A stretch of 64,000 bases of DNA, taken from assembly GCA_964187785.1 (NCBI GenBank), contig OZ076409.1:16742001-16806000 (forward strand), written 5' to 3'. The stretch comes from Amphiscolops sp. MND2022 (Eukaryota). This document shows, piece by piece, positions 6,001 through 62,619 of this stretch (within the stretch, counting starts at the first letter, position 1; each line of letters starts with the position of its first letter). The notes under the pieces are model-generated. The model was not told where the DNA came from and ran no database searches. It worked only from the letters and a program-made list of their open reading frames with translations. Position numbers and translations under genes: made by a program.

Positions 6001-8300
6001 TAGTCAGGGACCTGAATCATGCTCGTACTACAAAACATCCCTTACCTCCAACCAAAAGTTCACTTCAAATACCCTGGTCAACCATAACTATCAGATGAAT
6101 GTTCTAATCTTTCTGACGATCCATTGGATATCCGAAACTACTCCCTTAATCGAGAAACTAAATTTTATAATACAACTGGCATCACTTCACCACAACCGTT
6201 TTAAACACAATTACCTGTCAAACGATTGCCAAAGAGCTCAGGCTTCAAACTTTTTCCAAAACGTAGATTCCACCCTACAATATACAGATGATTCTGACAA
6301 GTCAAAGACAATACCATCACATTAAACATCACTTTTCCATCATTTTCTCAATTTCCAATCCAAACCCTGACAATTATCTTTCAAAACCTACACTTGAAAA
6401 CGATGAAACTGACAGTCCTGTCAAAATATATCGTAAAACAAATTACTCCTTTCAACCGCCTTCGTTTTAGAACAGGTCATGTCACCTTTTCTCTCACTTG
6501 CAGCACTCAATTTCTCGCCCACTTTAACCAACAACCGAAATTCGTGTTTTCGCATCTCCTGCTAGTACTTCAGATAAAACAACGCTTTAGTTTCTTTCGA
6601 TACACCATGACTCTGGCTCCAAACGTGATCTCCAAACTCAAATAGTTTCACGAATTATTTGCAAAATCACTGATCTCTAAACAACACCAGTATTTGACGA
6701 CACTCCAATTCTCTTTCTCGAACCTAAAACCCTTACAAATGTTTCTACTCATGTCGAACAAATAGAATCTACAAATCTACACTCTCGCATAACTGGAAAC
6801 CTTTGTAATTATGACCCAAACAAATAAGATTACAGTCCACTACCGCACAACAATATATCTAGACAACTCATTGTTCAAAAAGAATTTCTCATACTTTTTG
6901 ACAACGTCTTGCTTCCATGCAACCATCACTGTCATCTTACTGTTTTTGAACACCTCGTTTCTACTCCTCTTGACGGAAAAGATACCTCATATTACACAAC
7001 TTTGTCCAAACAAGGCCATTCATACAACGAAATATTTTCCTTTTTGCCTGAATTATATCCTATATGGTCAAATCAGACAAAATAATACGGAATCATGCTC
7101 ATCACAATTCACACCAGCAACATTCTGACACACACCATCGTGTTCATTCTCCTTAAAAACCACTAAAAAGTTTACCAACGTTTTCCTTTCACCAACTCAC
7201 TCTCCGTGACATCAAACTCAAACTTAAACCTTTAAAAAAGTCATTTGATTCTCCTCTCGCAACTCTCACTTAGATCATAGACTGATACGATTGCACAAAC
7301 GAAATACTAAAATCTCTAGCACTCGACTCTCAACGTACTACACAACATTGCAAAGCAAAACGAGTAGCATTAGGAAACATGAACATACTTTTTCACTCTT
7401 CAAATTTTCTTTGAATTCAAAAGGTAAAACAAATGATACTTATGTTTCTTTCTGATACACTTCAAAACTCCTTCTCAACCAATACTCAATTGAAAGGTAA
7501 CACCATATTTCATTTCAATTTCGGTACACTCTCTTTCCTTTTTGAATAGGTATTTTTTTTCTTATGTCATTTCGACTTTTTCCACTTCTTCTGAGAACTT
7601 GTCTAAAATTGTCACTTTTTCTATACTTCTCTGTTTTTCTACAGCACTCTTCTCAACTACTATTAAGTTTTTCTTTCACAAAAAAAACTTCATACCAAAT
7701 AGCACAAAAAAAACAAAAAAACAAACCAAACAGGCTCTTTCTTTCGATATGATTTAGACACTACTATTCTTCCCTCTCGTTCGACTCATTTTTCGTGGGG
7801 TCCACAATCACAAACTCAACTCCATTTTCCCTGCACAGGCTTTTACAGACATGAACCATTTTTCCTCCTGTCTCATTGCCATTCATGTTTCCAAAATGAA
7901 TTCGAAAAACAAAATGAATGCAACACAGACTGTACTTCTTTCAAAAAACGACCGAATACATTGAAAGCCGCTGTTTTCAAAAATTTAGCCCCCAAATTAG
8001 CCAAGAAATTTAATACTGAATTCGTGCAACTTTCAACTACCAGACCTTTTTTTACGCTCTCATACAACTTCAAAACTTCTACAAAATGAATTGCTTACCA
8101 ACATTACTTCCGTCTTCGTCAAAACGGAACTCAAATTGCCATGTGTGAAAATGTTGGCATTACAGTGTTTGTTCTAGAAGACACTTCGTTTGCAAAGAAA
8201 GACCATTCTTTCACTACAACACTCCAAGAAGCCAAGCATGCGTCGAATGCCGTCCTCGAGGACTTTGGCAATTCTAAACGTCTGAAAAAGTATGATATCA
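1..8300 (+). mobile_element. Degenerate Ty3/Gypsy LTR retrotransposon (pol 3' part, env-like ORF and long 3' region); 5' end lies outside the window
   Basis: Frameshifted motifs in Gypsy order. RT: AYTRKPLDEET...LVYIGNIL (decayed YIDD, ~10-205). RNase H: PFAFTVDVS*IGLGAVL, EQKLSTLEHELL, FTDH (550-800). Integrase: RISMDTKGTITPSS, FGPHVYLVIDR, PWTNGLIEVQ (2000-2330). Right boundary is approximate. Confidence 0.85.
4130..5990 (+). pseudogene. Disrupted env-like glycoprotein ORF downstream of integrase (class III fusogen-like)
   Basis: Cys-patterned fragments in several frames: LIIDEIASPCYSADGFCKSTTKPFTLVWFVVDFC, IEFFPHAQTFCCEPEHIHFTQYSDLIV, D*DAHIDTKMENTIIHVFCSIATQELNTLHF/REIEQKHFL..EQNPHYA, FHVEALTAWLHNGSQVPLPLYKADCCSDCI. 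A hydrophobic C-terminal segment follows (WFSDAFNSLLG...GIYSSTLLFVQ). Start is approximate. Confidence 0.6.
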
Positions 8301-24756: not shown

Positions 24757-26201
24757 AGTATGCTAAAACTGGTAAAACAAACATGATGATAAAAAGTCGA
24801 GTTTTCTGCGTTGTTCCCGAATTGTAATTAAACAGACATAACACTAATTTGCATTTTGAAACTGCAATTAAGTAATAAAAAAACATTTGACCTATTCGAT
24901 TTTTTAGAATAGACTCAGACAACGGTTTGAATCTAACCAATTTAGACTTTGTTTCATAATTTTTTGTTCAACGTTATTTTAAAGGTCAAACTTTAAAGTG
25001 AAAGTATCACTGACCTTATTGTATCAACTAATTAAACTGCAGTATTTCATTACTGTAACTGCAACTGACTTGCATGGCTCATATTGGGGGATTCAAAACA
25101 CTCACGCCAAGACGGGGGATTAACAGAAAAGAACCTAATGCCTTTTCAATTGATACTTTAGTCTCGCCATCGAGCCGAGCCATGTAAACGTAATTTGGTC
25201 TATCGCTGTATCTACATCTGCGGACTGGCCAATCGCAGTATGCTAAAATTGGTAAAACAAACATGATGATAAAAAGTCGAGTTTTCTACGTTGTTTCCGA
25301 ATTGTAATTAAACAGACATAACACTAATTTGCATTTTGAAACTGCAATTAAGCAATTAAAAACCATTTGACCTATTCGATGTTTAAGAATAGACTCAGAC
25401 GACAGTTTGAATCTAACCAATTTAGACTTTGTTTCATAATTGTTTGTTCAACGTTATTTTAAAGGTCAAACTCTAAAGTGAAAGTATCACTGACCTTATT
25501 GTATCAACTAATTAAATTGCAGTAATCCATCACTGTGACTGCAACTGGAATGCATGGCTCATAATGGGGGATTCAAAACACTCACGTTTAATACGAGGGA
25601 TTAACAGAAAAGAACCTAATGCCTTTTCAATTGATACTTTAGCCTCGCCATCGAGCCGAGCCATGTAAACGTAATTTGGTCTATCGCTGTATCTACATCG
25701 GCGGACTGGCCAATCGCAGTATGCTAAAATTGGTAAAACAAACATGATGATAAAAAGTCGAGTTTTCTGCGTTGTTTCCGAATTGTAATTAAACAGACAT
25801 AACACTAATTTGCATTTTGAAACTGCAATTAAGCAATTAAAAAACATTTGACCTATTCGATGTTCAAGAATAGACTCAGACGACAGTTTGAATCTAACCA
25901 ATTTAAACTTTGTTTCATAATTTTTTGTTCAACGTTATTTTAAAGGTCAAACTCTAAAGTGAAAGTATCACTGACCTTATTGTATCGACTAATTAAATTG
26001 CAGTATTTTATTACTGTGACTGCAACTGAAATGCATGGCTCTTAATGGGGGATTCAAAACAGTCACGTTTAAAACGAGGGATTAACAGAAAAAAACCTAA
26101 TCCCTTTTCAATTGATAATTTAGTCTCGCCATCGAGCCGAGCCATGTAAACGTATTTTGGTCTATCGCTGTATCTACATTTGCGGACTGGCCAATCGCAG
26201 T
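24757..26201. repeat. Tandem triplication of a 480-481-bp unit
   Basis: agtatgctaaaa(c/t)tggtaaaacaaacatgatg starts at 24757, 25237 and 25718. The units are highly similar with scattered substitutions. Confidence 0.97.
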
Positions 26202-32009: not shown

Positions 32010-35000
32010 ACTGAGTTCAACCAAGAAGAGAAGAGATGGCTCAACCTAAACGGTTCGATATCAACAAAACGGAAAATTTCCTGAGGAAACGTTTAGTTAG
32101 TGGATTGCAGCGATCGAGCACCGTAAGACTAATAAAGAAATTGATGAGAACCTGGCTAGCATTGTTGACGACAAGCAGATAGCAGAGTTACTACTAAGAC
32201 GAACAGATGCCATAAACAGGAAAGAGCGGCTCATTAAGGCAGTCGAAAATGCAATCAAAGTAAAGTACCAACCGCAGATACCCGAAATGTTCTCATTAGT
32301 GAACAAAGCAATGCCGAGCCGATTGGTTGAGTTGCAGCAGCAAAGCTCTAGCATTGAAAGGATTAAAAAAACTGATGTCAGCATTGCAAGATGAAAATCA
32401 GATACTAAACTACTTGAATCTGGAAGGAGAGAAACGTGCTATTGATGAAATTCAATCGCAAATAGCGAAGTTGTCGACGATGAAGATTATGCTACAACAT
32501 GTCAAGAATTGCTGCAAAAACAGTTTGACATCAAAACAAAAATAGAAGCTCTGCTGAAGATAGGAGACGGGGCAGCCATTTTGCAAGGTCTTGAAGACGC
32601 TGAAGGAAGACGAGCAGAAGCTCGTGTGAACTCGGCAGCAGACAAATCCATTAAAAATGGTTATTCACCACAAAAGGAACTGAAACCAGACAACGAAAGA
32701 CAAAACCTCGATGGTCACAACGCAGATGAAAGACAAAATTCAAGAAATGAAGCATTGCAAATAGAAGAATTGAGTTTAGATTCGCAAGGTGACAAAACCA
32801 AAAGCAGCAAAACTTCTATGTTTTCGAGAACGTCAAGTGTAACACGAGTTCTTGATTTGGAATTGAAAGAACTACAAACCCGCCAGGAGAAACTCCGACG
32901 AGAAGCAGAAGAAATTGAGATAGCTGGCTTGCAAGAGGAGTTGGCTCGCAAAGCTAGAATAGCAGAAAAGAAAATAGAAAGAGCACAGGTGTCAAGTAAT
33001 TGTGGGTCTAGCTTCCGAAGTATCCCACAGGTCGGGGCTCCAGACGAAAACTTGACAAAAGTCTCAGGATGGATGAACAAAACACAAGAAGCTGAAAAGG
33101 TGGCTCCGCCCATCAACGTGCCATCAGTATACCAGCAAACGTCCGTCACAACACCAGTGATTACAGTACGGTCAACGCACGGAGAACAATGCTCCGCGCA
33201 AATGAGGGACTTGAAACCCTCAGTGCAGTCGACCATATCGACAGAAGCCGTTGTGCAAGATAGTGGAAGGAACAGAACAAAGACTGTCATAGGTGCTGTC
33301 AGTCAAAAAGCAACAGCACAACCAGAAATGAAATTCGCCATATTAAAGCAGTCAATGACCCTTATGGCAGGCCAAAGCTAGATACCACCTACGAATTGAG
33401 GAAACCCGAGTAGTGCATTTCAAGTACCACAGTTCACGAACGCGCAGAAGCAGTAATGCCAAGTCAAGGGCAAAACTTTGCCTCAAATGCAAGAGATGAC
33501 TATTTCATCAAATCTAATTTTCCAAAGCTAAACTTGTCAGAGTTTTAGAGTGACCCCTTAGAATAACCAGAGTGGTCTATTCCAAGCAACTGTCCACGCA
33601 GCGAACATGGACTAAAGTGTAAAGATGAATCACCTGAAAACCATGGTCACAGGCAAGGCCCAGGAGCCAATTGCTGGCTTGGGGTACACCGCTGAGAAGT
33701 ACAATGTGGCGTAGAAAATGCTAGTTTGAATCTTTGGAAAACGGCAATTGGTTGTGAACGCTCAGTTGAAGTGAATCTATTTGTTTCCACCTATGAAACT
33801 ATATGAAGGAGTCGTTTTGATCAAGTTTGCGAGAATAGTGTCGAGTTGCGTGAATGTTTTGACACAATTCAAATACATGGGCGACCTAACCTCAAAGGGA
33901 GTTCAGGGAAGCGCCACAATAAAGTTAACACTGGAAATTGAAATTGAAGTGGCTGACTTATGTTAAACAAAAGAACCTGTATCAACCTGGACTTGCTGTG
34001 TTCAGTGAATGGCTAAATGATACAGCAGAAGTGCAAGATGAACTGATTACGTCTTCAAACTCGAATGCTGACCGCGCGAAATCGAGCTACATGGAAAAGG
34101 CCGGAGGCTCCACGCTTGCAACATCAGCAACAAACCCAGCAAAAGACAATTCGAAGAACCAGAGCGAGTGTATGTTGAAAGACGGCAATCATCCCAAGGG
34201 GAAATGTGAAAAATTCAAGAAGAAGAACGTCGAAGAAAGAGGACAGAAGGCAATAGAGTTGAGAATGTGCTTCAGTTGTTTGTCAGACGCACATCGGATG
34301 AGACGTTGCTCTGGTAGACAATGCGATGTAAGTGGTTGGGGGAACCTCATCACAAATTGCTACATCGACCATACAACAACGTGGAACAAAAACAAAACGT
34401 TGAAAATGTCGAGAAGGTCTCTAACCTGTCCTTAAAAATGAGAAGCAGTGGTGTGCTTCCAGTCGTTCTAGTAACGATTCGAAGTGGAAGCAAAACTCTG
34501 AAAACGTTTGCTTTGTGCGACTCTGGAGCTAGTCTTTCGTTTGTGGACAAGGGTCTGATGAAAACGCTAAATCTGACGGGCCAACTAGTGGATTTGAATG
34601 TTGCAGGGATTCATGGAACGTCAGATGTCAGTAGCAAAAGACTTCGAATCAACAGTTTTGGTCAAGAAGGAAAGGTCAATGAAAACATCACTGTCTATAG
34701 TCATCCTAATGTGAGCGCGGGGATTTGAACGTACAACTTCAAGAAAGTGAAGGAAACATACCATCACATGTCAGTTTTGAAAGATTTTACCATCAACTTG
34801 GGAGATGTGAAAGTCATCTTCGGACAAGATTGTTGTCACTTGCACAGAGGAACAGAATGTAGACAATGTGGAAACGCAAAGCCGTGGGCAGTGCGAAAGA
34901 AGCTGAGAAGGATGCTCAGTGGACCCTTACCTCAACAAAAAGTGCGAAAGTTGCAATCAAAAGTTTCTACGCAGCAGAATTGGACCCATTAGTGGGTCAA

Positions 35001-36233
35001 ATGAAAACTCGGTGGAGCATGGGATTGTATGCCCCCAATTGCAGTGTGTCCGGGAGGTTCAAGGCAAATAAGAAGTTTTCACCGAACAATTTCGCTGTAG
35101 AACGCAATTGGCAGGAAGTCAGCACTAAAACCCTTCTCGTAGAACTCGAACAAGTCTGTCAAGAAGATATGCAACTTGTTGCAGGCGACCATACCATGCT
35201 CAAACAAATACAGAACAAGGAGTTCTCAATTACAGAAGAAAAGAACGAACATGAACGTGTCGCAATAACATCAAACTTCGGAACAATTTAATGGAACGCT
35301 TGATTTGCTAAAACAGAGTTTAGATGTCGCCTCTGTACAACAGCATGGAAAAGAGAAAGAAGTATTCAACTCAATTGCAAGCAATGAATGTTACTGTGAA
35401 CACTCTAACACTTGAAGAAGGAAAAAAGTGTTCTCAATTGGACATAGAAACTCGTGTATTACTGCCAAATTGAATTTCATGAAGTTCCAAGTGGCCCAGC
35501 AATATATCGAAGACCCTTCAGTGGTTTGTTGGAACGAGACCAACCGGCTGAGGTGACCGCGAGTAATGAAACAAAAGCCGTAAATGTGTTTTTTTGGAAA
35601 AAAACATGACGTTGATTTGAACAACAAACTGCTGGACAAACTCATTCCAAACGACTGTGAAAATTGTAACAATTGGTTAGGTAATGGAAATTCGGGATAG
35701 GTTGCAATGGCACAAGCTAACACTAAGGCGTACACCCAACTGGGAAATGGCAACCGCAATCAATTCAAGAAACGAGCATGGTAGTTTAAACATAGCTCAA
35801 ACCGATTACATGGAAAGATCGAAAGCGTTCAATTGATTCCTACAGGCATCCTAAATGCAAAGATTGTGATAGATAAATTTAACAAAATATCGCTTTTGGA
35901 AATGCGATTGGGTTCCACAAAAGCACGAAAATAAACAAAATCGGGAAAAAGGCCCTGCATGGGAAGAAATGATGATGCAACTTGAATCCTTTGGAAAATG
36001 GAAAAACGAAGAAGTTAGACAACTGGAAGTCATTGATTTGGTTTGCCTAGTGTATGAGATTGTAAAAGGAGCTGGCTACAAGATGTCAAGAGTATTAGAA
36101 TACTATATGGAAGCGATGGGCGAGTGAGATCAGTACTGGTGAAAACTGAAGATGGAAATCTCAAAAAAGCAGTGATGAAACTGGCACCCTTGTTTTACGA
36201 AAGTGTTTATCGGTAGAAAAACAGGGCCGGCAA

Positions 36234-36937
36234 TGTTGGCGCTAGTCATCAGCAGGCAAAGAAAGTCGATTCGATTTGGAACATGGTGGTTGAGAAACAA
36301 GACATAAACCCTAGAAAACATACAAGAAATTCTGAAGAAATATCAAGTGTGACAAAAGTTCAAAACCCACCAAATGGGTTTCCTCAAAGACTTTTAGTCG
36401 TAGAGCCATGAAACTTGGTACACATATGCAAGGCCTAACACAAACACACCAGCTGAGTTTCAAGGTCATTGCCCGCTTTTAAATGTCATTTATTTATACT
36501 TACATATATGTTCTTATATTTACTGTAGAATTGTAGGCGATATCTATACCTTTATTAGATAGAGATTTTCTCCACAGAATCGCTATAGTCAAGTTTGGTC
36601 TTAGGACCATGAGACTAATTATTCAACTTCTCAATCTCCACAACTTTTCGCTAGAGTTAGAGCGATAAGTAGCTACTCTCACAATTGAAGAGACGGAGCG
36701 CGTGAAGATACAGTGAGGGAAGTGTGTTACGGATCACATCGGATTCAAACAAGTGCAAAACGGGATCGCACGAGCTTCCACGGGTCACATCGGACCCACC
36801 AGTCAAACGATACAGTCCTTTAAAAGCACAAGAAAACCAGTAATTGTTTAATAACGGTCCACAGTACGAAGCAACGGATCAGGGGGGCGTAAAGCTTGTC
36901 AAGTCTCAGCGCAGGATAAGGGCAAGCAGCCGTTACA
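36234..36937 (+). repeat. 3' LTR of the BEL/Pao element
   Basis: TG...CA ends (tgttggcgct...gccgttaca) after the purine-rich agaaaaacagggccggcaa. Shares blocks with 31345-31550 and 31699-31727. Confidence 0.85.
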
Positions 36938-37582
36938 CTGCCCTTCGTTGAAGCCGACGACTATTTATTTTTTGGGATTGTGTTCGGATTATTGTCCCTT
37001 CGCGTTCCCCTCTTGTCTTTGATAGTGAAATCTGAGCTCCAGAGACACCAACAGAACCAAAATCAGCAACCATTGGTGCATGGGGCCCAAAAATAACCGG
37101 TCCCAGTTGTCAAGAATTCGGTGGTTGAGACAAACATCCTTGTGCGAAAAAATAGGAGAAACAGTACCGAATAACACACAAAACCTTGTCCGTCTCTGAA
37201 ATCTCAATGCAGATCCTGACGAACGTACGAGTAGATTAAATTCCAGGGCGCAAACGATGAATATTCATGAAAGACTTACCCGCATGTTTACTTTCATTTC
37301 ACCGAGACAATGTTTTGTCAACGCTTCGCCAGAATTGAAGCTGAGGTCTTCAGTAAATCATAGACTATCCTCATAAAAGAGATTAGACTAGCGATTCAAG
37401 GGACACACGATGTGTTCACTCCACGCATCAAACTCGCGCAATTCTGCAAGTTTATTTACTTTTCCCACAAGGCTCCAGTCGAAGAAAAACATTTGTACGT
37501 AGTTGCAGCAACTGTAAGTGACTATTGTCACTCAGACGCGTAAAATCAACGAATTACCGTTATCAACTACTGTCATGATGAC

Positions 37583-40500
37583 GTTGCGTGAATGGTTTGA
37601 CACAATTCAACTACATGAGCGACCTAACGTCAAAGGGAGTTCTGGGAACCGCCACAAGAAAGGTAACACTGGAAATTGAAAACGAAGTGGCTGACTTATA
37701 ATAAACAAAAGAACCTGTATCAGCCTGGATTTGCTGTGTTCAGTGAATGGCTAAATGATATAGCAGAAGTGCAAGATGAACTGATTATTTCTTCAAACCC
37801 GAATGCTGTTTGTCGAGCTACATGGAGCGCGAAGTCGAGCTACATGGAAAAGCCGAAGGCTCCACGCTTGCAACATCAGCAACAAACACAGCAAAAGACA
37901 ATTCGAAGAACCAGAGAGAGTGTATGTTGAAAGACGGCAATCATCCTTAGGGGAAATGTGAAAAATTCAAGAAGAAGAACGTCGAAGAAAGAGGACAGGA
38001 GGCAATAGAGTTGAGAAAGTTCTTCAGTTGTTTGTCAGACGCACATCGGATGAGACCTTGCTCTGGTAGACACTGCGATGTAATTGGTTGCGGGAAACCT
38101 CATCACAGATTGCTACATCGACCATACAACAACGTGGAACAAAAACAAAACGTTGAAAATGTCGAGGAGGTCTCCAACCTGTCCTCAATAACGAGAAGCA
38201 GTGGTGTGCTTCCAGTCGTTCTAGTAACGATTCCAAGTGGAAGCAAAACTCTGAAAGCGTTTGCTTTGTGCGATTCTGGAGCTAGTCTTTCGTTTGTGGA
38301 CGAGAGTCTGATGAAAACGCTAAATCTGACGGGCCAACTAGTGGATTTGAATGTTGCAGGGATTCATGGAACGTCAGATGTCAGTAGCAAAAAACTTCGA
38401 ATCAACGTTTTGATCAAGAACGAAAGGTCAATGAAAACATCACTGTCTATTGTCATCCCAATGTGAACGCGGAGATTTGAACGTTCAACCTCAAGAAATT
38501 GAAGGAAACATACCATCACATGTCAGTTTCGGAAGATTCTACCATCAACTTGGGAGATGAGAAAGTCATCTTGGGACAAGATTGTTGTCACTTGCACAGA
38601 GGAACAGAATATAGACAATGTGGCAACGCAAAGCTGTGGGCAGTGCGAAAGAAGCTGGGAAGGATGCTCAGTGGACCCTTACCTCAACAAAAAGTGCGAA
38701 ACTCGCAATCAAAAGCTTCTACGCAGCAGAACTGGACCCTTTAGTGGGTCAAATGAAAACTCGGTGGATCATGGGATTGTATGCCCCCAATTGCAGTGTA
38801 TCCGCGAGGTCCAAGGCAAATAAGAAGTTTTCACCGGACATTTTCGCTGTAGAACGCAATTGGCAGAATGTCAGCACTGAAACCTTCCTCGTAGAACTCG
38901 AACAAGTCTGTCAAGAAGATATGCAACTTGTTGCAGGCGACCATAACATGCTCAAACAAGAACAGAACAAGGAGTTCTCGATTACAGAAGAAAAGAACGA
39001 ACATGAACGTGTTGCAATTACATCAAACTACGGAACAATTTAATGGAACGCTTGATTTGCTCAAACAGAGTATAGATGTCGCCTCTGTACAACCGCATGT
39101 AAAAGAGAAAGAAGTATTCAACTCAATTGCAAGCAATGAATGTTACTGTCAACACTCTAACACTTGAAGAATGAAAAAAGTGTTCTCAATTGGACATAGA
39201 AATTCGTGTATTAGTGCCAAATTGAATTTCATGAAGTTCCAAGTGGCCCAGCAATTTATCGAAGACCCTTCAGTGGTTTGTTGGAACGAGACCAACCGGC
39301 TGAGGAGACCGCGAGTAATGAAACAAAATCCGTAAATGTGTCTTTTTGGAAAAAAAACATGACGTTGATTTGAACGAAAAACTGCTGGACAAACTCATTC
39401 CAAACGACAATGAAATTTGTAACAATTGGTTAGGTAATGGAAATTCGGGATAGGTTGCAATGGCACAAGCTAACACTAATGCGTACACCCAACTAAGAAA
39501 TGGCAACCGCAAGCAATTCGAGAAACCAGCATGGAAGTTTGAACATAGCTCAAACCGATTACATGGAAAGATCGAAAGCGTTCAATTGATTCCTACAGGC
39601 ATCCAAAATATAAAGCTTTTGAAAGATAAATTTAACAAAATATCGCTTTTGGAAATGCGATTGGGTTCCACAAAAGCATGAATATAAACAAAATCGGAAA
39701 AGGGGCCTTGCATGGGAAGAAATGATGATGCAACTTGAATCCTTTGGAAAATGGAACAAAGAAGACGTTAGACAACTGGAAGTCATTGATTTGGTTTGCC
39801 TAGTGTACGAGATTGTAAAAAGAGCTGGCTACAAGATGTCAAGAGTTTTAAAATACTATATGGAAGCGATGGGCAAGTGAGATCAGTAGTGGTGAAAACT
39901 GAAGATGGAAATCTCAAAACACCAGTGGTGAAACTGGCACCCTTGTTTTACGAAAGTGCTTTTCGGTAGAAAAACAGGGCCGGCAATGTTGACGCTAGTC
40001 ATCAGCAAGCAAAGCAAGTCGATTCGATTTGGAACATGGTGGTTGAGAAACAAGACATAAACTCTTGAAAACTTACAAGAAATTCTGAAGAAATATCAAG
40101 TGTGACAAAAGTTCAAAACCCACCAAATGGGTTTCCTCAAAGACTTTTAGTCGTAGAGCCATGAAACTTGGTACACATATGCAAGGCCTAACACAAACAC
40201 ACCAGCTGAGTTTCAAGGTCATTGCCCGCTTTTAAATGTCATTTATTTATACTTACATATATGTTCTTATATTTACTGTAGAATTGTAGGCGATATCTAT
40301 ACCTTTATTAGATAGAGATTTTCTCCACAGAATCGCTATAGTCAAGTTTGGTCTTAGGACCATGAGACTAATTATTCAACTTCTCAATCTCCACAACTTT
40401 TCGCTAGAGTTAGAGCGATAAGTAGCTACTCTCACAATTGGAGAGACGGAGCGCGTGAAGATACAGTGAGGGAAGTGTGTTACGGATCACATCGGATTCA

Positions 40501-41336
40501 AACAAGTGCAAAACGGGATCGCACGAGCTTCCACGGGTCACATCGGACCCACCAGTCAAACGATACAGTCCTTTAAAAGCACAAGAAAACCAGTAATTGT
40601 TTAATAACGGTCCACAGTACTAAGCAACGGATCAGGGGGGCGTAAAGCTTGTCAAGTCTCAGCGCAGGATAAGGGCAAGCAGCCGTTACACTGCCCTTCG
40701 TTGAAGCCGACGACTATTTTTTTTTGGGATTTTGTTCGGATTAATGTCCCTTCGCGCTCCCCTCTTGTCTTTGATAGTGGAATCTGAGCTCCAGAGACAC
40801 CAACAGAACCAAAATCAGCAACCATTGGTGCATGGGGACCAAAAACAACCGGTCCCAGTTGTCAAGAATTCGGTGGTTGAGACAAACATCCTTGTGCGAA
40901 AAAATAGGAGAAACAGTACCGAATAACACACACAACCTTGTCCGTCTCTGAAATCTCAATGCAGATCCTGACGAACGTGCGAGTAGATTAAATTCCAGGG
41001 CGCAAACGATGAATATTCATGAAAGACTTACCCGCATAATTACTTTCATTTCACCGAGACAATCTTTTGTCAACGCTTCGCCAGAATTGAAGCTGAGGTC
41101 TTCAGTAAATCATAGACCATCCTCATAAAACAGATTAGACTAGCGATTCAAGGGACACACGATGTGTTCACTCCACGCATCAAACTCGCGCAATTCTGCA
41201 AGTTTATTTACTTTTTCCACAGGGCTCCAGTCGAAGAAAAACATTTGTACGTAGTTGCAGCAACTGTAAGTGACTATTGTCACTCAGACGCGTAAAATCA
41301 ACGAATAACCATTATCAACTACTGTCAATATGACGT
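37583..41336 (+). repeat. Second copy of a ~3.74-kb tandem duplication (first copy 33845-37584): BEL 3' half, LTR (39987-40690) and ~650 bp of flank
   Basis: gttgcgtgaatg at 33845 and 37583. Colinear match ends at tatcaactactgtca..tgacgt (37584 / 41336). Confidence 0.97.
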
Positions 41337-48555: not shown

Positions 48556-49563
48556 ATGAAACGAATCAAGTTGGGTGGGATTGTTGAAAGTTCTCATTTG
48601 GGATTAGGATGCATGTCTCTGTCTCCTAACATCTACAAACCCCCCGATGATTACACGGACGAGCATGGAATCAAGGTAATCAGAAGGGCCATAGAGTTGG
48701 GAATAACCCATTTGGACTCTGCTTTGATTTACGGCGTTGGACATAACGAGACTTTGGTGGGAAAAGCAATCGCTGGATTATCCAAAGACGAGCGCGTCAA
48801 GTTGTGTGTCGCAACAAAAACCGGTTTCGACATCTCATCTGATGGTTCAATCAAGGTCAGTGGTGAACCTGAGTTCATCCGAAGAACCGCCCATGAATGC
48901 GCTGCAAGACTGGGAACATATATCGACATATTTTATTTGCACCGTATCGACACTAGCACCCCTATCGAAGAAACCATGAAGGTGTTGAAAGAATTGGTAC
49001 AATCTGGACTCATAAGAGCAATCGGGCTGAGCGAGGCTTCTGCACAAACTATTGCCCGAGCGCACGCTGTTCACCCCCTCGCGGCAGTTCAGATTGAATG
49101 GTCGTTGTGGTCCCGAGACGCCGAAGAAGATGTCATTCCCATGTGTAGGAAACTGGGAATCGGCATAGTCGCTTATTCCCCGCTAGGACGAGGAATGTTG
49201 ACTGGTGCCATCAAAAACCGAAACGATCTCAAAGAAGGTGACTGGCGTCTCAACAACCCCCGTTTCCAAGAAGAGGCTGTGGAGAAAAACAGGAAACTTG
49301 TGGAAAAAATGGAAGAAATGGCAAAGAGGAAGGGCGGCAATTGCACACCTGCAAAACTAGCCCTGGCTTGGGTGCTGGCTCAAGGTGATGACGTAGTGCC
49401 TATACCAGGAACCTCCAAGATTGAGAACTTGGAAAAAAACGCCGACGTGGTCAACTACCAATTGACCCGGGAGGAAATAGAGACTTTGAACAGTTTCTTC
49501 CCTCCAGAACACGTGGTTGGAGACAGATATGAGGCAAACATGATGACATTTAAAGGAAACTGA
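48556..49563 (+). CDS. Aldo-keto reductase (AKR13-like; plant auxin-induced/perakine reductase and bacterial AKR type), 335 aa, intronless
   Basis: Intact ORF from caacaATG to TGA. Motifs LGLGCMSLS, catalytic tetrad LDSALIYG (D,Y), VATK (K), YLHRID (H), IGLSEAS, VQIEWSLW, VAYSPLGRG, LALAWVLAQG..VVPIPGT. Confidence 0.95.
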   Translation: MKRIKLGGIVESSHLGLGCMSLSPNIYKPPDDYTDEHGIKVIRRAIELGITHLDSALIYGVGHNETLVGKAIAGLSKDERVKLCVATKTGFDISSDGSIKVSGEPEFIRRTAHECAARLGTYIDIFYLHRIDTSTPIEETMKVLKELVQSGLIRAIGLSEASAQTIARAHAVHPLAAVQIEWSLWSRDAEEDVIPMCRKLGIGIVAYSPLGRGMLTGAIKNRNDLKEGDWRLNNPRFQEEAVEKNRKLVEKMEEMAKRKGGNCTPAKLALAWVLAQGDDVVPIPGTSKIENLEKNADVVNYQLTREEIETLNSFFPPEHVVGDRYEANMMTFKGN

Positions 49564-49857
49564 ACGAAACGTTTAATGATTAGGTAACAAAAAGCTTGGA
49601 ATCCCAAATAACGAATAATTGAAAAGAGTTAAAGCTGGTTTCTTTCCTGTGTGAGGTTTTGAAGTAGAGATAACAAAATGATGATTGTTTAAATTTTGTT
49701 TCAGTTCACCTAGCAGAATCAGCAGTAAGTAAGAAACTATTTTATCAGGCCATTTTGATCGGCGTCTTTCAAAAAAGTGGCAAGTGTTTTCCCTACATGT
49801 TTTTGTAGTGCTTCCATGTGCTTATATATAAGTACATGCCAAAGCAGCAATGAGTAC

Positions 49858-50430
49858 AAAGAAGCCGGGAACGGCCAAAGTCGGCGCCCCACTCAAGTTT
49901 TTTTCTTTACAAAAACAAGTTTCTTGAATATGAAAATACTCGAAAACCAGTTTTCCCAAACTGGAACCAAAAAAACATTTTTCGAAATGTTTTTTTTTCG
50001 AAAGTTTTTGTCTGGAAAAAGTCTCACAGTACGGCAAAGGGAGCTTTGAACTCGGAAAACAATTTTTCCAAGCCGACGGCATCTATGAAAATGAAGGTAC
50101 TCTTTGACCAAACAAAATTTTCTTTAGAAAAAAGTCACAGTGTCGGAAATTAATTAATTGTCATTTCCACAATTACTGAGAGACCTCTCATCCGCTCCAC
50201 TGGACCAAATAAATATCAATCATAATATTTATCAATCAGTATCTCCGTTTGGACTCTGAAAAGTGTTTCCCTCTCAAAAAACCTCTAAAAAACAAAAATG
50301 GAAAAAGATTCGGGAAACTGCACGACAATTTTTCCACAATCTCTGTAAGTCTCATTGCGCCGAAGAAATGCTTGCGAAACTGCGAAACGTAAAAAACCAA
50401 AAGCACTTCAATTGAAGAAATTGGAGCGCT
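49858..50430 (+). mobile_element. Non-autonomous repeat related to 15685-16268
   Basis: Head aagccgggaacggccaaagtcggcgcc. Right end uncertain. Confidence 0.45.
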
Positions 50431-50593
50431 TTTTGTGAACTAATGCCTCCTACTTAATAAAACACAGCTTAATTCGGATATTGGGCAATAATTTCGAACC
50501 TCCGCTGCTTTCTTATTAAAACGCAATTTACTTCGACTAAACGTCAAACATTCGGAAATAGCGTGATCAGACAAATGAGAGCGCATTTTTGAA

Positions 50594-50735
50594 CCTCCTC
50601 CTCCTCCTCCTCCTCCTCCTCCTCCTCCTCCTCCTCCTCCCCCTCCTCCTCCTCCTCCTCCTCCTCCTCCTCCTCCTCCTCCTCCTCCTCCTCCTCCTCC
50701 TCCTCCTCCTCCTCCTCCTCCTCTTCCTCCTCCTC
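50594..50735. repeat. (CCT)n/(GGA)n microsatellite, ~140 bp
   Basis: Nearly pure trinucleotide run. Confidence 0.99.
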
Positions 50736-60469: not shown

Positions 60470-62619
60470 AACCAGAAAGACCTTATGGGTCAATTTTGAC
60501 CTTATCAAAAATTGCATGTCTTTGTTTTGCTACTTAATTTGAAAACTCAAGTATTGCAAAAAATACAATATCAACAATTATCACACGTTGCCATGACATA
60601 TTTCACACTAATAGTCAGACAGTTCGAGCATTTGAACTTCTCATATTTGGCACATCTGACATTTGTCTTGCTCTGACATCCCGATGTTTGACAATGGTGT
60701 CGTTTTTCCGCCACTGGTAAAGGTTTCAGTTGGTTGTTTGACGTTGCTGGAGCGCTTGGTTCGTCAGTGGCACGATTCATACCCCGGTTCGGTTGAGGGT
60801 TGTCAGTTCGATAAATACCTCATAAATGAAATCTCGTCTAGAAACTTTCGTCTGCGTGATTTTTCTATAGATTATCCAGGAATTCATAACAGATTTGTCC
60901 AAAATGTTGCAAAAAACAGCAAAAGTCCATCGCCTCGATGCCGTCCTCGTGGAACACGCTCTTATCATCTGATCCATAGCGTCTACGCCAACTTTGTTTT
61001 TATTATAAAACAAAAAAACTTCTGGTTTACAATTTGGCGGCCCCATAACGGTTGAATTCCGGTGCATGCTAGACAACAGCTCTACTGATTTGTTGTTTTT
61101 GCCTTGATAAGTAACCAGAATCACGTTAATGGAGCAATGATGAAGAAACTTTGTTGAATGGAGCTGCAAACGTTTATTTGCTTCAGGACACAACTCTCTT
61201 CTATTTGAGCTAATATTTCCCACATAAGAAATTTTCCTTTTCAATAACTCCACCAACACTACCGATGTGAAAAATTTATCGCCTGTTATGTTGTAACCTT
61301 GACCTAAATTTTTAGCTAGATCCAAAACAACATCAACCGACAATGGTCGATTGCGCGTTTAGGAGTTTCCGCGGTAAGGAATACAATTGACGATATATTT
61401 GGGTTCAACTTCAACCAAAAGCAACATTTTGATACCGTATTTATCCGGTTTGTTGGCCATGAAATTGATAAATTGGCATCTCGTTTTCAATGGCATTAGC
61501 TCTTGAGTCAACAGTGAGTGGAAACTCAGGCACATACTTCTCTTGGCAGTTTTTCACAAAGGAATCCATGAGTTCACGCCCAGCTTCAAACCTGTCCGTA
61601 CATACCCGGTAACTACGTGTTGTTTTCGCACACAGACGCACGCAACTCATAATTTCCTTGTATCGGTTTCGAGACATCAAATTTCGAAACGTTTTTGAGC
61701 CATATTTGTTACTCCAAAAGTATGTCAGAGGAATGTTTTTGCTATGCAGTCCACATAGATAATGAAGGGCAACAAATGTTTTGAACTTTTGTTTAGTGAT
61801 AACTGTTTTGCGTTTTTGGTTGCTGTTTGTGATTTGTAATACTCTGTCAATCATGGCGTTGTCGAAAAAATCAAACCACGCGTCGCCAACTGTGCTAACT
61901 CTGGCTGCCACAAAAGGTTTGACGCCCGGCTGTTTGCGAGTAATGTTCTGTTGTTGTATGCGACCTGGAGACTCTGGCACCAGCGATAGAACCCATTTTG
62001 TTCCATCTTTACCTGTTAAACTATCTGCATTAGCCCTGTTGTTTGTCAATCTGGATTGTCTTTCTTGATTGTCGTCGTCTACAAAAAATATTTTGTTTTG
62101 TTTCTAGGAAGAAATTAACTATAAACTAAAACACAGGCCTTCCTGAATTTTGAGAACTTGTGCTATCGCTTTCTACTGGTGATGTGGCTACAACTGTTTC
62201 CTCGGAATTGTCAGTCTCGCCAGATTGATCCTAATCCATATCTTGATACCATGCAAAACAGGCCGATGCAGCAGTTTGTCGTCTTGGGTGATCTATGGAA
62301 AAAGCTCAAAATTAGAGTTTTGATGAACCAAATAATTGAATAAACGGTCTATATTCAACATTATAGAAGGACAATTTTGTTATAGAACATAAAACTAAAT
62401 GAAACAACTTTTAATTAACATATGGGTCACTTTTGACCCTTTTGGTTGTTCGCGGAAGAAATTTATTTGCTCAGAGCTTAACAAGCTTATCTGTAGTAAG
62501 AACTTAATATATGTAACAAAGTCACGAAACATCATCCTTCTAATTCACCTCAAAAAGCTACAGTAAACAAATCAAAATGCAAAGGGGTCAAAATTGACCC
62601 ACCGGTGGTCCTTCTAGTA
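60470..62619 (-). mobile_element. piggyBac-superfamily transposon, defective transposase
   Basis: ORF pieces 61441-62049 (GKDGTKW, MSRNRY, LTVD), 60777-61343 (ITGDKFFTS, LLSSMH, KPEVFLFYNKNKVGVDAMDQM, RRWT) and 60571-60780 (C-terminal Cys-rich domain). Imperfect TIRs contain gggtcaattttgacc (60487; 62584-62600), with an internal copy at 62424. No clean TTAA flanks. Confidence 0.93.

What the first reader, a model, noticed from the sequence alone, without database searches (positions are those of the whole stretch)
48556..49563. Lone intact, intronless AKR of non-animal type in a TE graveyard: horizontal transfer candidate
Seen: the only uninterrupted long ORF in 64 kb. It has a full catalytic tetrad, no introns, higher GC than its flanks, no operon neighbours and is surrounded by eukaryotic repeats. 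Known: GLGCM.LS / VQ.EWSLW.RD.E / GIGIVAYSPLGRG are hallmarks of plant, fungal and bacterial AKR13-type enzymes rather than the animal AKR1/6/7 families. Inference: a retained HGT (from a bacterium, alga or other microbe) or a retrocopy, kept by selection, perhaps for aldehyde detoxification or pyridoxal metabolism.
Basis: partly seen in the sequence, partly recalled or inferred. Interest (0 to 1): 0.75.

Follow-up and report, generated by a model that had tools for sequence, protein, structure and literature searches.

The report
Intron-free survivor in acoel enzyme family
This intact gene, predicted to encode an aldehyde-reducing enzyme of a plant- and protist-like type, is not a lone newcomer but one of seven old copies in what is likely an acoel worm genome; the family possibly came long ago from a microbial eukaryote, and this copy likely keeps the original intron-free form while its sister copies gained introns independently, several likely from jumping genes.

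Summary
The 335-codon ORF is real, intact and intronless, with the full catalytic tetrad; perakine reductase is its nearest solved relative. It is not lone, recent or a contaminant. It lies on a 104-Mb contig beside a dispersed host repeat and has six intron-bearing paralogues on five other contigs and elsewhere on its own. Synonymous sites to all six are saturated, and its GC3 equals theirs. The closest named relatives are acoel proteins (Symsagittifera, Convolutriloba).

Trees place the family among eukaryotic AKR13-type enzymes (amoebozoan, algal, plant, unnamed), not bacteria. The donor is unresolved and vertical descent stays open.

The paralogues' 20 modelled introns fall at 18 positions, none matching those inferred in the other acoels, so the intron-free state is probably ancestral. 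Six of 20 have GC, GG or GA donors. Five of 20 have terminal inverted repeats, against 0 of 21 housekeeping introns, which points to transposon-derived intron gain. No RNA data tested splicing or expression. The scan's earlier notes held nothing similar.

The parts
48556..49563 (+). Intact single-exon AKR13-type aldo-keto reductase gene, 335 aa
48715..48717 (+). Catalytic Asp54
48730..48732 (+). Catalytic Tyr59
48817..48819 (+). Catalytic Lys88
48940..48942 (+). Catalytic His129
48673..48677 (+). Empty proto-splice site (AAG^GT, codon 40/41) that carries an intron in the C5 and C11 paralogues
49853..50481 (.). Dispersed host repeat starting about 290 bases after the stop; its long matches are 68-77% identical and lie on many large contigs; anchors the gene in host DNA

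Best explanation
The ORF is an intact, old member of a seven-gene aldo-keto reductase family, predicted to be an NADPH-dependent aldehyde reductase, in what is likely an acoel genome; the family possibly entered acoels long ago from a microbial eukaryote, and this copy likely keeps the core family's ancestral intron-free form while its sister copies gained introns independently, several likely from DNA transposons. Shown: intact frame, tetrad, paralogues, saturated synonymous sites with low amino-acid change, non-shared intron positions, inverted repeats at some intron ends. Inferred: the catalytic role (Tyr59 proton relay, hydride from NADPH to small or aromatic aldehydes, general detoxification), the transfer, and splicing at GC, GG and GA donors. 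Proposed intron mechanism: a CAGGG/CAAGG-ended element inserts with a 7-base duplication ending AG-G. The left copy's last G plus the element's first base makes the donor, the right copy's AG makes the acceptor, and splicing would restore the coding sequence exactly.
For: Family: six paralogues; all seven modelled frames lack stops, C8 lacking its first exon. Selection: pS 0.73-0.83 (saturated) and pN 0.11-0.17 to C5, C11, C13. Homologues: a 1-residue-different ENA protein and a 92% Logan protein; named S. roscoffensis (3 clusters) and C. macropyga (5 clusters). Origin: three trees nest the family with Arcella, Phalansterium, a red alga, trebouxiophytes, MMETSP and plant proteins, nearest to unnamed contigs; no named non-acoel animal in 3 x 120 listed hits. 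Ancestral intronlessness: 20 introns at 18 positions, shared only at 41/0 (C5, C11) and 151/1 (C1b, C7). ENA gene calls run unbroken over the full length (P0003, P0005, P0006, P0009) or to codon 288 (four C. macropyga genes) or 236 (one S. roscoffensis gene), positions not used here. C5 and C11 pair with each other (94/95), not with the window. Transposon signature: 5 of 20 introns with end repeats at p <= 0.01 against 0 of 21 housekeeping introns (Fisher p 0.02). Three introns share one geometry (repeat starts at intron base 2, ends 6 before the acceptor end), one with a 6-of-7 duplication. The GG and GA donors alone restore the family sequence (scores 1191 vs 1070; 487 vs 405).
Against: The donor is unresolved. 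With the nearest unnamed rows included, a bacterial (p 0.17), fungal-like (p 0.15), amoebozoan (p 0.53) or plant (p 0.45) sister is not rejected. The subfamily is widespread in eukaryotes, so vertical descent fits, and my lists were capped at 8000 candidates and 120 rows. The deep paralogues C1b and C7 share an intron, so the family root may have had one. Window+C5 (p 0.053) and window+C11 (p 0.13) are not rejected. Four repeat-ended introns have no full-length copy elsewhere. Two GC introns (C5 i1, C11 i1) failed the repeat test (p 0.24, 0.29). The donor contrast (6 of 20 vs 1 of 21, p 0.045) depends on my choosing GT at two control junctions where a non-GT donor scored 5 points higher. Intron positions in other acoels are read from truncated gene calls, not DNA. 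C13 has changes at conserved residues and may be decaying. A P. naikaiensis paper reports no microalgal transfers and no introns made only of transposons (PMC6451197, passages).
Confidence: 0.45

Rival explanations
1. Vertical descent: an ancient eukaryotic AKR13-type gene was kept in acoels and lost from most well-studied animals; the intron history is as in the best explanation.
For: The subfamily is named from Amoebozoa, red and green algae and plants. Acoel-only monophyly is not rejected (p 0.24). A fungal-like sister is not rejected (p 0.15; the label 'fungal-like' for P0305 and P0316 is recalled, from no call). C1b and C7 share an intron.
Against: No named non-acoel animal in 360 listed rows. 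The best trees interleave acoel genes with unnamed contigs, one intronless with AT-rich flanks, and place the fungal-like rows outside.
Confidence: 0.33
2. The window gene is an old retrocopy of an intron-bearing parent in the C5/C11 lineage and lost its introns by reverse transcription.
For: It is intronless on a different contig from C5 and C11 (81% and 76% identical), among LTR remains. The site 41/0 is filled in both and empty here. AU p 0.053 and 0.13.
Against: The best tree pairs C5 with C11 (94/95) and the window weakly with an unbroken ENA gene (72/30). No poly(A) tract is seen; flank similarity is absent in five of six comparisons and marginal in one (p 0.035 uncorrected). No intron shared with C13 or with other acoels needs losing. 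Saturation would have erased these marks, so they are weak.
Confidence: 0.2
3. The family came from a bacterium, either recently as this gene or long ago at the root of the wider group.
For: Bacterial proteins reach 51-53% identity. The whole group beside bacteria is not rejected (p 0.17). An intron-free ancestor fits.
Against: Core clade plus bacteria is rejected (p 0.013). All best trees put eukaryotes between them. Acoel homologues and saturation exclude a recent event.
Confidence: 0.1
4. The family came from the green algal symbiont lineage.
For: The named relatives are acoels of photosymbiotic genera (stated for S. roscoffensis in PMC9911081, listing; recalled for Convolutriloba); green algae carry the subfamily.
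Against: Core plus three trebouxiophytes is rejected (p 2e-5). No Tetraselmis or dinoflagellate protein was named in my set, so the actual symbionts were not tested.
Confidence: 0.05
5. Contaminant or chimeric join.
For: GC is above the flanks.
Against: 104-Mb contig; host repeat 290 bases downstream; no N gap within 5.5 kb; intron-bearing paralogues; a near-identical protein on an ENA contig.
Confidence: 0.01

Closest known systems
Perakine reductase (PDB 3UYI/3V0S; the label AKR13D1 is recalled) and plant 'probable aldo-keto reductase 2' / PCNT115 proteins
   Same: Best solved match by sequence (E 3e-86; about 47% by my hand count of the alignment) and by fold (TM 0.77-0.78, 42-44% identity); same tetrad.
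   Different: Below the 60% subfamily line (recalled rule); in an animal genome; substrate untested and alkaloid substrates not implied.
Intron gain in a transferred alpha-amylase of Basidiomycetes (PMC3584928, abstract)
   Same: An intron-free gene, then duplicated, gains regularly scattered introns to match host gene structure.
   Different: There the donor is a named bacterium and early introns are shared. Here paralogues gained almost wholly different introns, some with transposon ends and non-GT donors, and one copy stayed bare.
Introners and transposon-derived introns (PMC9860276 and PMC11282704, passages)
   Same: Terminal inverted repeats, acceptor AG taken from the duplicated target, GC donors, even spacing.
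   Different: No multi-copy family was found for four introns tested; a 7-base duplication geometry; GG and GA donors inferred. 'Acoel' does not occur in the main text of PMC9860276.
Uncharacterised acoel AKRs (S. roscoffensis LOC134847801, LOC134846025, LOC134851287; C. macropyga LOC142345302, 303, 308, LOC142348631, LOC142350944)
   Same: Same clade, 57-66% identical by local alignment.
   Different: Zero or one inferred intron each, at other positions, where assessed; LOC134851287 was not resolved.

Membership tests
Aldo-keto reductase superfamily | PF00248 domain and alpha/beta barrel fold | tested here: met
   (pLDDT 91.7)
Aldo-keto reductase superfamily | Asp-Tyr-Lys-His tetrad | tested here: met
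   D54, Y59, K88, H129
Aldo-keto reductase superfamily | NAD(P)H-dependent carbonyl reduction | not testable with these tools
   needs an assay
AKR13 family | Over 40% identity to a member (threshold as used in PMC4570671, passages) | tested here: met
   42-44%, about 47% hand count to perakine reductase; its AKR13 label is recalled
AKR13D subfamily | Over 60% identity to perakine reductase (recalled rule) | tested here: not met
Pyridoxal reductases | Closest similarity to pyridoxal reductase | tested here: not met
   E 8.7e-23, 24-25% identity
Horizontally acquired gene | Integrated in the host genome | tested here: met
Horizontally acquired gene | Nested in a named donor lineage with alternatives rejected | tested here: inconclusive
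Horizontally acquired gene | Absent from other animals and holozoans | tested here: inconclusive
   none named in 360 listed rows of capped lists
Retrocopy | Lacks introns present in a parent's ancestor | tested here: inconclusive
   only 41/0 is a candidate
Retrocopy | Poly(A) remnant or UTR homology to the parent | tested here: not met
   age would erase it
Introner (paralogue introns) | Terminal inverted repeats and target duplication at intron ends | tested here: met
   5 of 20 at p <= 0.01; geometry; duplications match 2-6 of 7
Introner (paralogue introns) | Many similar copies at unrelated sites | tested here: not met
   four introns searched, no full-length copy
Introner (paralogue introns) | Spliced out of mRNA | not testable with these tools
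   needs RNA reads of this species

The most novel reading that the evidence does not exclude
Acoels acquired an AKR13-type enzyme family from a microbial eukaryote. In this lineage the spliceosome accepts GC, GG and GA donors, so CAGGG-ended DNA transposons with 7-base target duplications become exact introns. They fill intron-free genes to even spacing, independently in each paralogue, while old housekeeping genes stay canonical. The window gene is the uninvaded control copy.
Probability: 0.3. Interest if true: 0.75.

Novelty: new variant of a known kind. Interest (0 to 1): 0.5.

Why it matters
The family is a natural experiment in intron gain: near-identical coding sequences, one bare and three with four introns each at 11 different sites out of 12. 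This makes testable where new introns land, whether even spacing is selected, and whether an animal spliceosome uses GG and GA donors made by transposon ends. If transfer holds, it would be a eukaryote-to-acoel gene transfer, where one acoel genome paper reported no microalgal transfers (PMC6451197). It also shows that intronlessness and high GC can mislead as transfer signs.

Tried and rejected
Expression: no sequencing run was listed, so no reads were laid; this says nothing either way. ESM Atlas gave only bacterial AKR clusters, uninformative on origin. NCBIfam: no model reached its cut-off. The metagenome scan returned 80 loci, none above 51% identity. The first tree had mis-extracted bacterial frames and was superseded. 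The careful trees did not finish; the quick trees are reported. GC as a donor signal was rejected. The first exon of C8 was not found. The perakine reductase paper is not held. Literature: 'introner'+'acoel' gave one unrelated paper; searches listed nothing on this family or on non-canonical acoel introns; no supplements were read, and introner species tables may bear on novelty. PMC3184775, PMC13344042, PMC11296255 and PMC11202113 (passages) added nothing on AKR13 in animals. Earlier-findings look-ups gave nothing relevant.

Full report
Observation. The ORF runs from ATG 48556 to TGA 49563 and gives 335 residues without stop or intron. It matches PF00248, keeps D54, Y59, K88 and H129, and folds with mean pLDDT 91.7 into a model whose best solved match is perakine reductase. 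It is the longest of 67 frames of 100 aa or more, though a 310-aa frame also exists. Its GC (47.6%) exceeds its flanks (35-36%). Of 14 other window frames scanned, four matched integrase or piggyBac-type transposase families.

Not a contaminant, not alone. The window lies on a 104-Mb contig of a 1.07-Gb genome. A repeat beginning 290 bases after the stop recurs on many contigs, and no second DNA copy of the gene was found. The protein finds six paralogues, all split by introns: C5 (81% identical), C11 (76%), C13 (72%), C8 (60%, first exon not found), C1b (48%) and C7 (46%). Synonymous sites are saturated in every pair while amino-acid change is low (pN 0.11-0.17 to the closest three), and GC3 matches theirs. 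So the gene is old and selected, and its GC is host coding GC. The closest named relatives are RefSeq proteins of Symsagittifera roscoffensis and Convolutriloba macropyga (8 of 20 clusters looked up; the other 12 named no organism), from which I infer an acoel host.

Origin. Trees of 285, 88 and 51 rows (unnamed bacterial-like rows thinned, rows over or under length dropped) place the acoel genes inside a eukaryotic clade. It holds Arcella, Phalansterium, Purpureofilum, trebouxiophytes, MMETSP transcripts and land plants (7 of 10 clusters labelled). The nearest rows are unnamed JGI, Logan and ENA sequences. Joining only the core acoel clade to bacteria or to the three green algae is rejected (AU p 0.013, 2e-5), and acoel-only monophyly is not (p 0.24). 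When the nearest unnamed rows are included, no sister group tested is rejected, bacteria included (p 0.15-0.53). No named non-acoel animal appears in three lists of 120, but these lists are capped and crowded by plants. I put an old transfer from a microbial eukaryote at about 0.5, vertical descent at a third, and the rest on bacteria or algal symbionts.

Why it has no introns. The 20 modelled paralogue introns occupy 18 positions; only 41/0 (C5, C11) and 151/1 (C1b, C7) are shared. A further canonical intron follows a 5' exon in C7 and is not counted. Gene calls on ENA contigs run unbroken over the whole length for P0003, P0005, P0006 and P0009. They break at codon 288 in four C. macropyga genes and at 236 in one S. 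roscoffensis gene, sites unused here. The careful tree pairs C5 with C11 (94/95) and leaves the window gene beside them. Parsimony therefore needs no loss in the window lineage: the core clade was probably intron-free and each copy gained its own introns. An old retrocopy is not excluded (AU p 0.053 and 0.13).

How the sisters gained introns. Six of 20 donors are non-GT: four GC, one GG, one GA. The GG and GA choices alone restore the family sequence, by wide score margins. Five of 20 introns have inverted repeats at their ends at p <= 0.01, uncorrected. Three share one geometry consistent with a 7-base target duplication ending AG-G, matching 6, 4 and 3 of 7. In C13 intron 3 the element's first three bases lie in the exon and stand in for the host's, and the intronic duplicate has decayed (2 of 7) while the exon kept the consensus. 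That suggests continued splicing (inference). As a control I modelled ATP synthase alpha and beta, enolase and two SAM synthetases against E. coli proteins: 21 introns, none with end repeats, one GC donor (Fisher p 0.02 and 0.045). Left out were two in-frame indels, one duplicate enolase intron and two unscored gaps. At two control junctions I took GT over a non-GT donor scoring 5 points higher; counting those would remove the donor contrast but not the repeat contrast. Exons in C5, C11 and C13 are never under 120 bases, unlikely under random placement (p 0.015-0.028 each). Four repeat-ended introns have no full-length copy elsewhere, so these are old gains, not a demonstrated Introner family.

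Function. From the intact tetrad and the fold, the protein is predicted to reduce aldehydes with NADPH; general detoxification is the likeliest role (inference). Pyridoxal reductases are far more distant. Nothing here tests substrate or expression.

Literature seen. Passages: PMC9911081, PMC10565955 (mean exons per gene 6.4 in P. naikaiensis, 4.2 in S. roscoffensis), PMC6451197, PMC11282704, PMC9860276, PMC4570671, PMC11202113, PMC3184775, PMC13344042, PMC11296255. Abstract: PMC3584928. Ten searches listed no paper on this family or on transposon-derived acoel introns. No supplements were read.

Verdict. A real, selected gene of a type unusual for animals, but neither lone nor recent. Transfer is plausible and unproven. 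The more striking result is independent, partly transposon-like intron gain in its paralogues, with this copy as the bare reference. Interest 0.5; new variant of a known kind.

Noticed in passing
G000:C7:44.477-44.479 Mb (L025, L222): The deep paralogue C7 has Ala in place of the catalytic His and an N-terminal extension on its own exon, both shared with an unnamed JGI protein (P0173, 72%); possibly organelle-targeted with altered chemistry.
   Followed up: partly
G000:C13:38.594-38.597 Mb (L023): C13 has changes at otherwise conserved residues near intron 4 and in the last exon, without stops; it may be under relaxed selection.
   Followed up: partly
G000:C8:1.779-1.814 Mb (L026-L029): C8 spans over 35 kb with introns of 2.5-16 kb full of repeats; one donor is best read as GA.
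   Followed up: partly
window 33845-41336: Tandem duplication of a 3.75-kb block at 95% identity with weak aspartyl-protease hits, preceded by a 310-aa frame without Pfam match; looks like a decayed LTR element.
   Followed up: partly
window 24757-26201: Three head-to-tail copies of a 481-base unit at 94% identity.
   Followed up: no
window 60777-62103 (-): Broken piggyBac-type transposase (PF13843) in two frames.
   Followed up: no
window 50594-50735: CCT microsatellite of 47 units about 1 kb downstream of the gene.
   Followed up: no
L220:1559-4027 (-), upstream of the window: 823-aa open frame downstream of gag zinc-knuckle and protease frames, with only a weak PNMA-like hit (E 0.05).
   Followed up: partly
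G000:C7:71.65 Mb and C8:44.24 Mb (L218, L216): The 3' part of enolase is present twice with a near-identical last intron.
   Followed up: no
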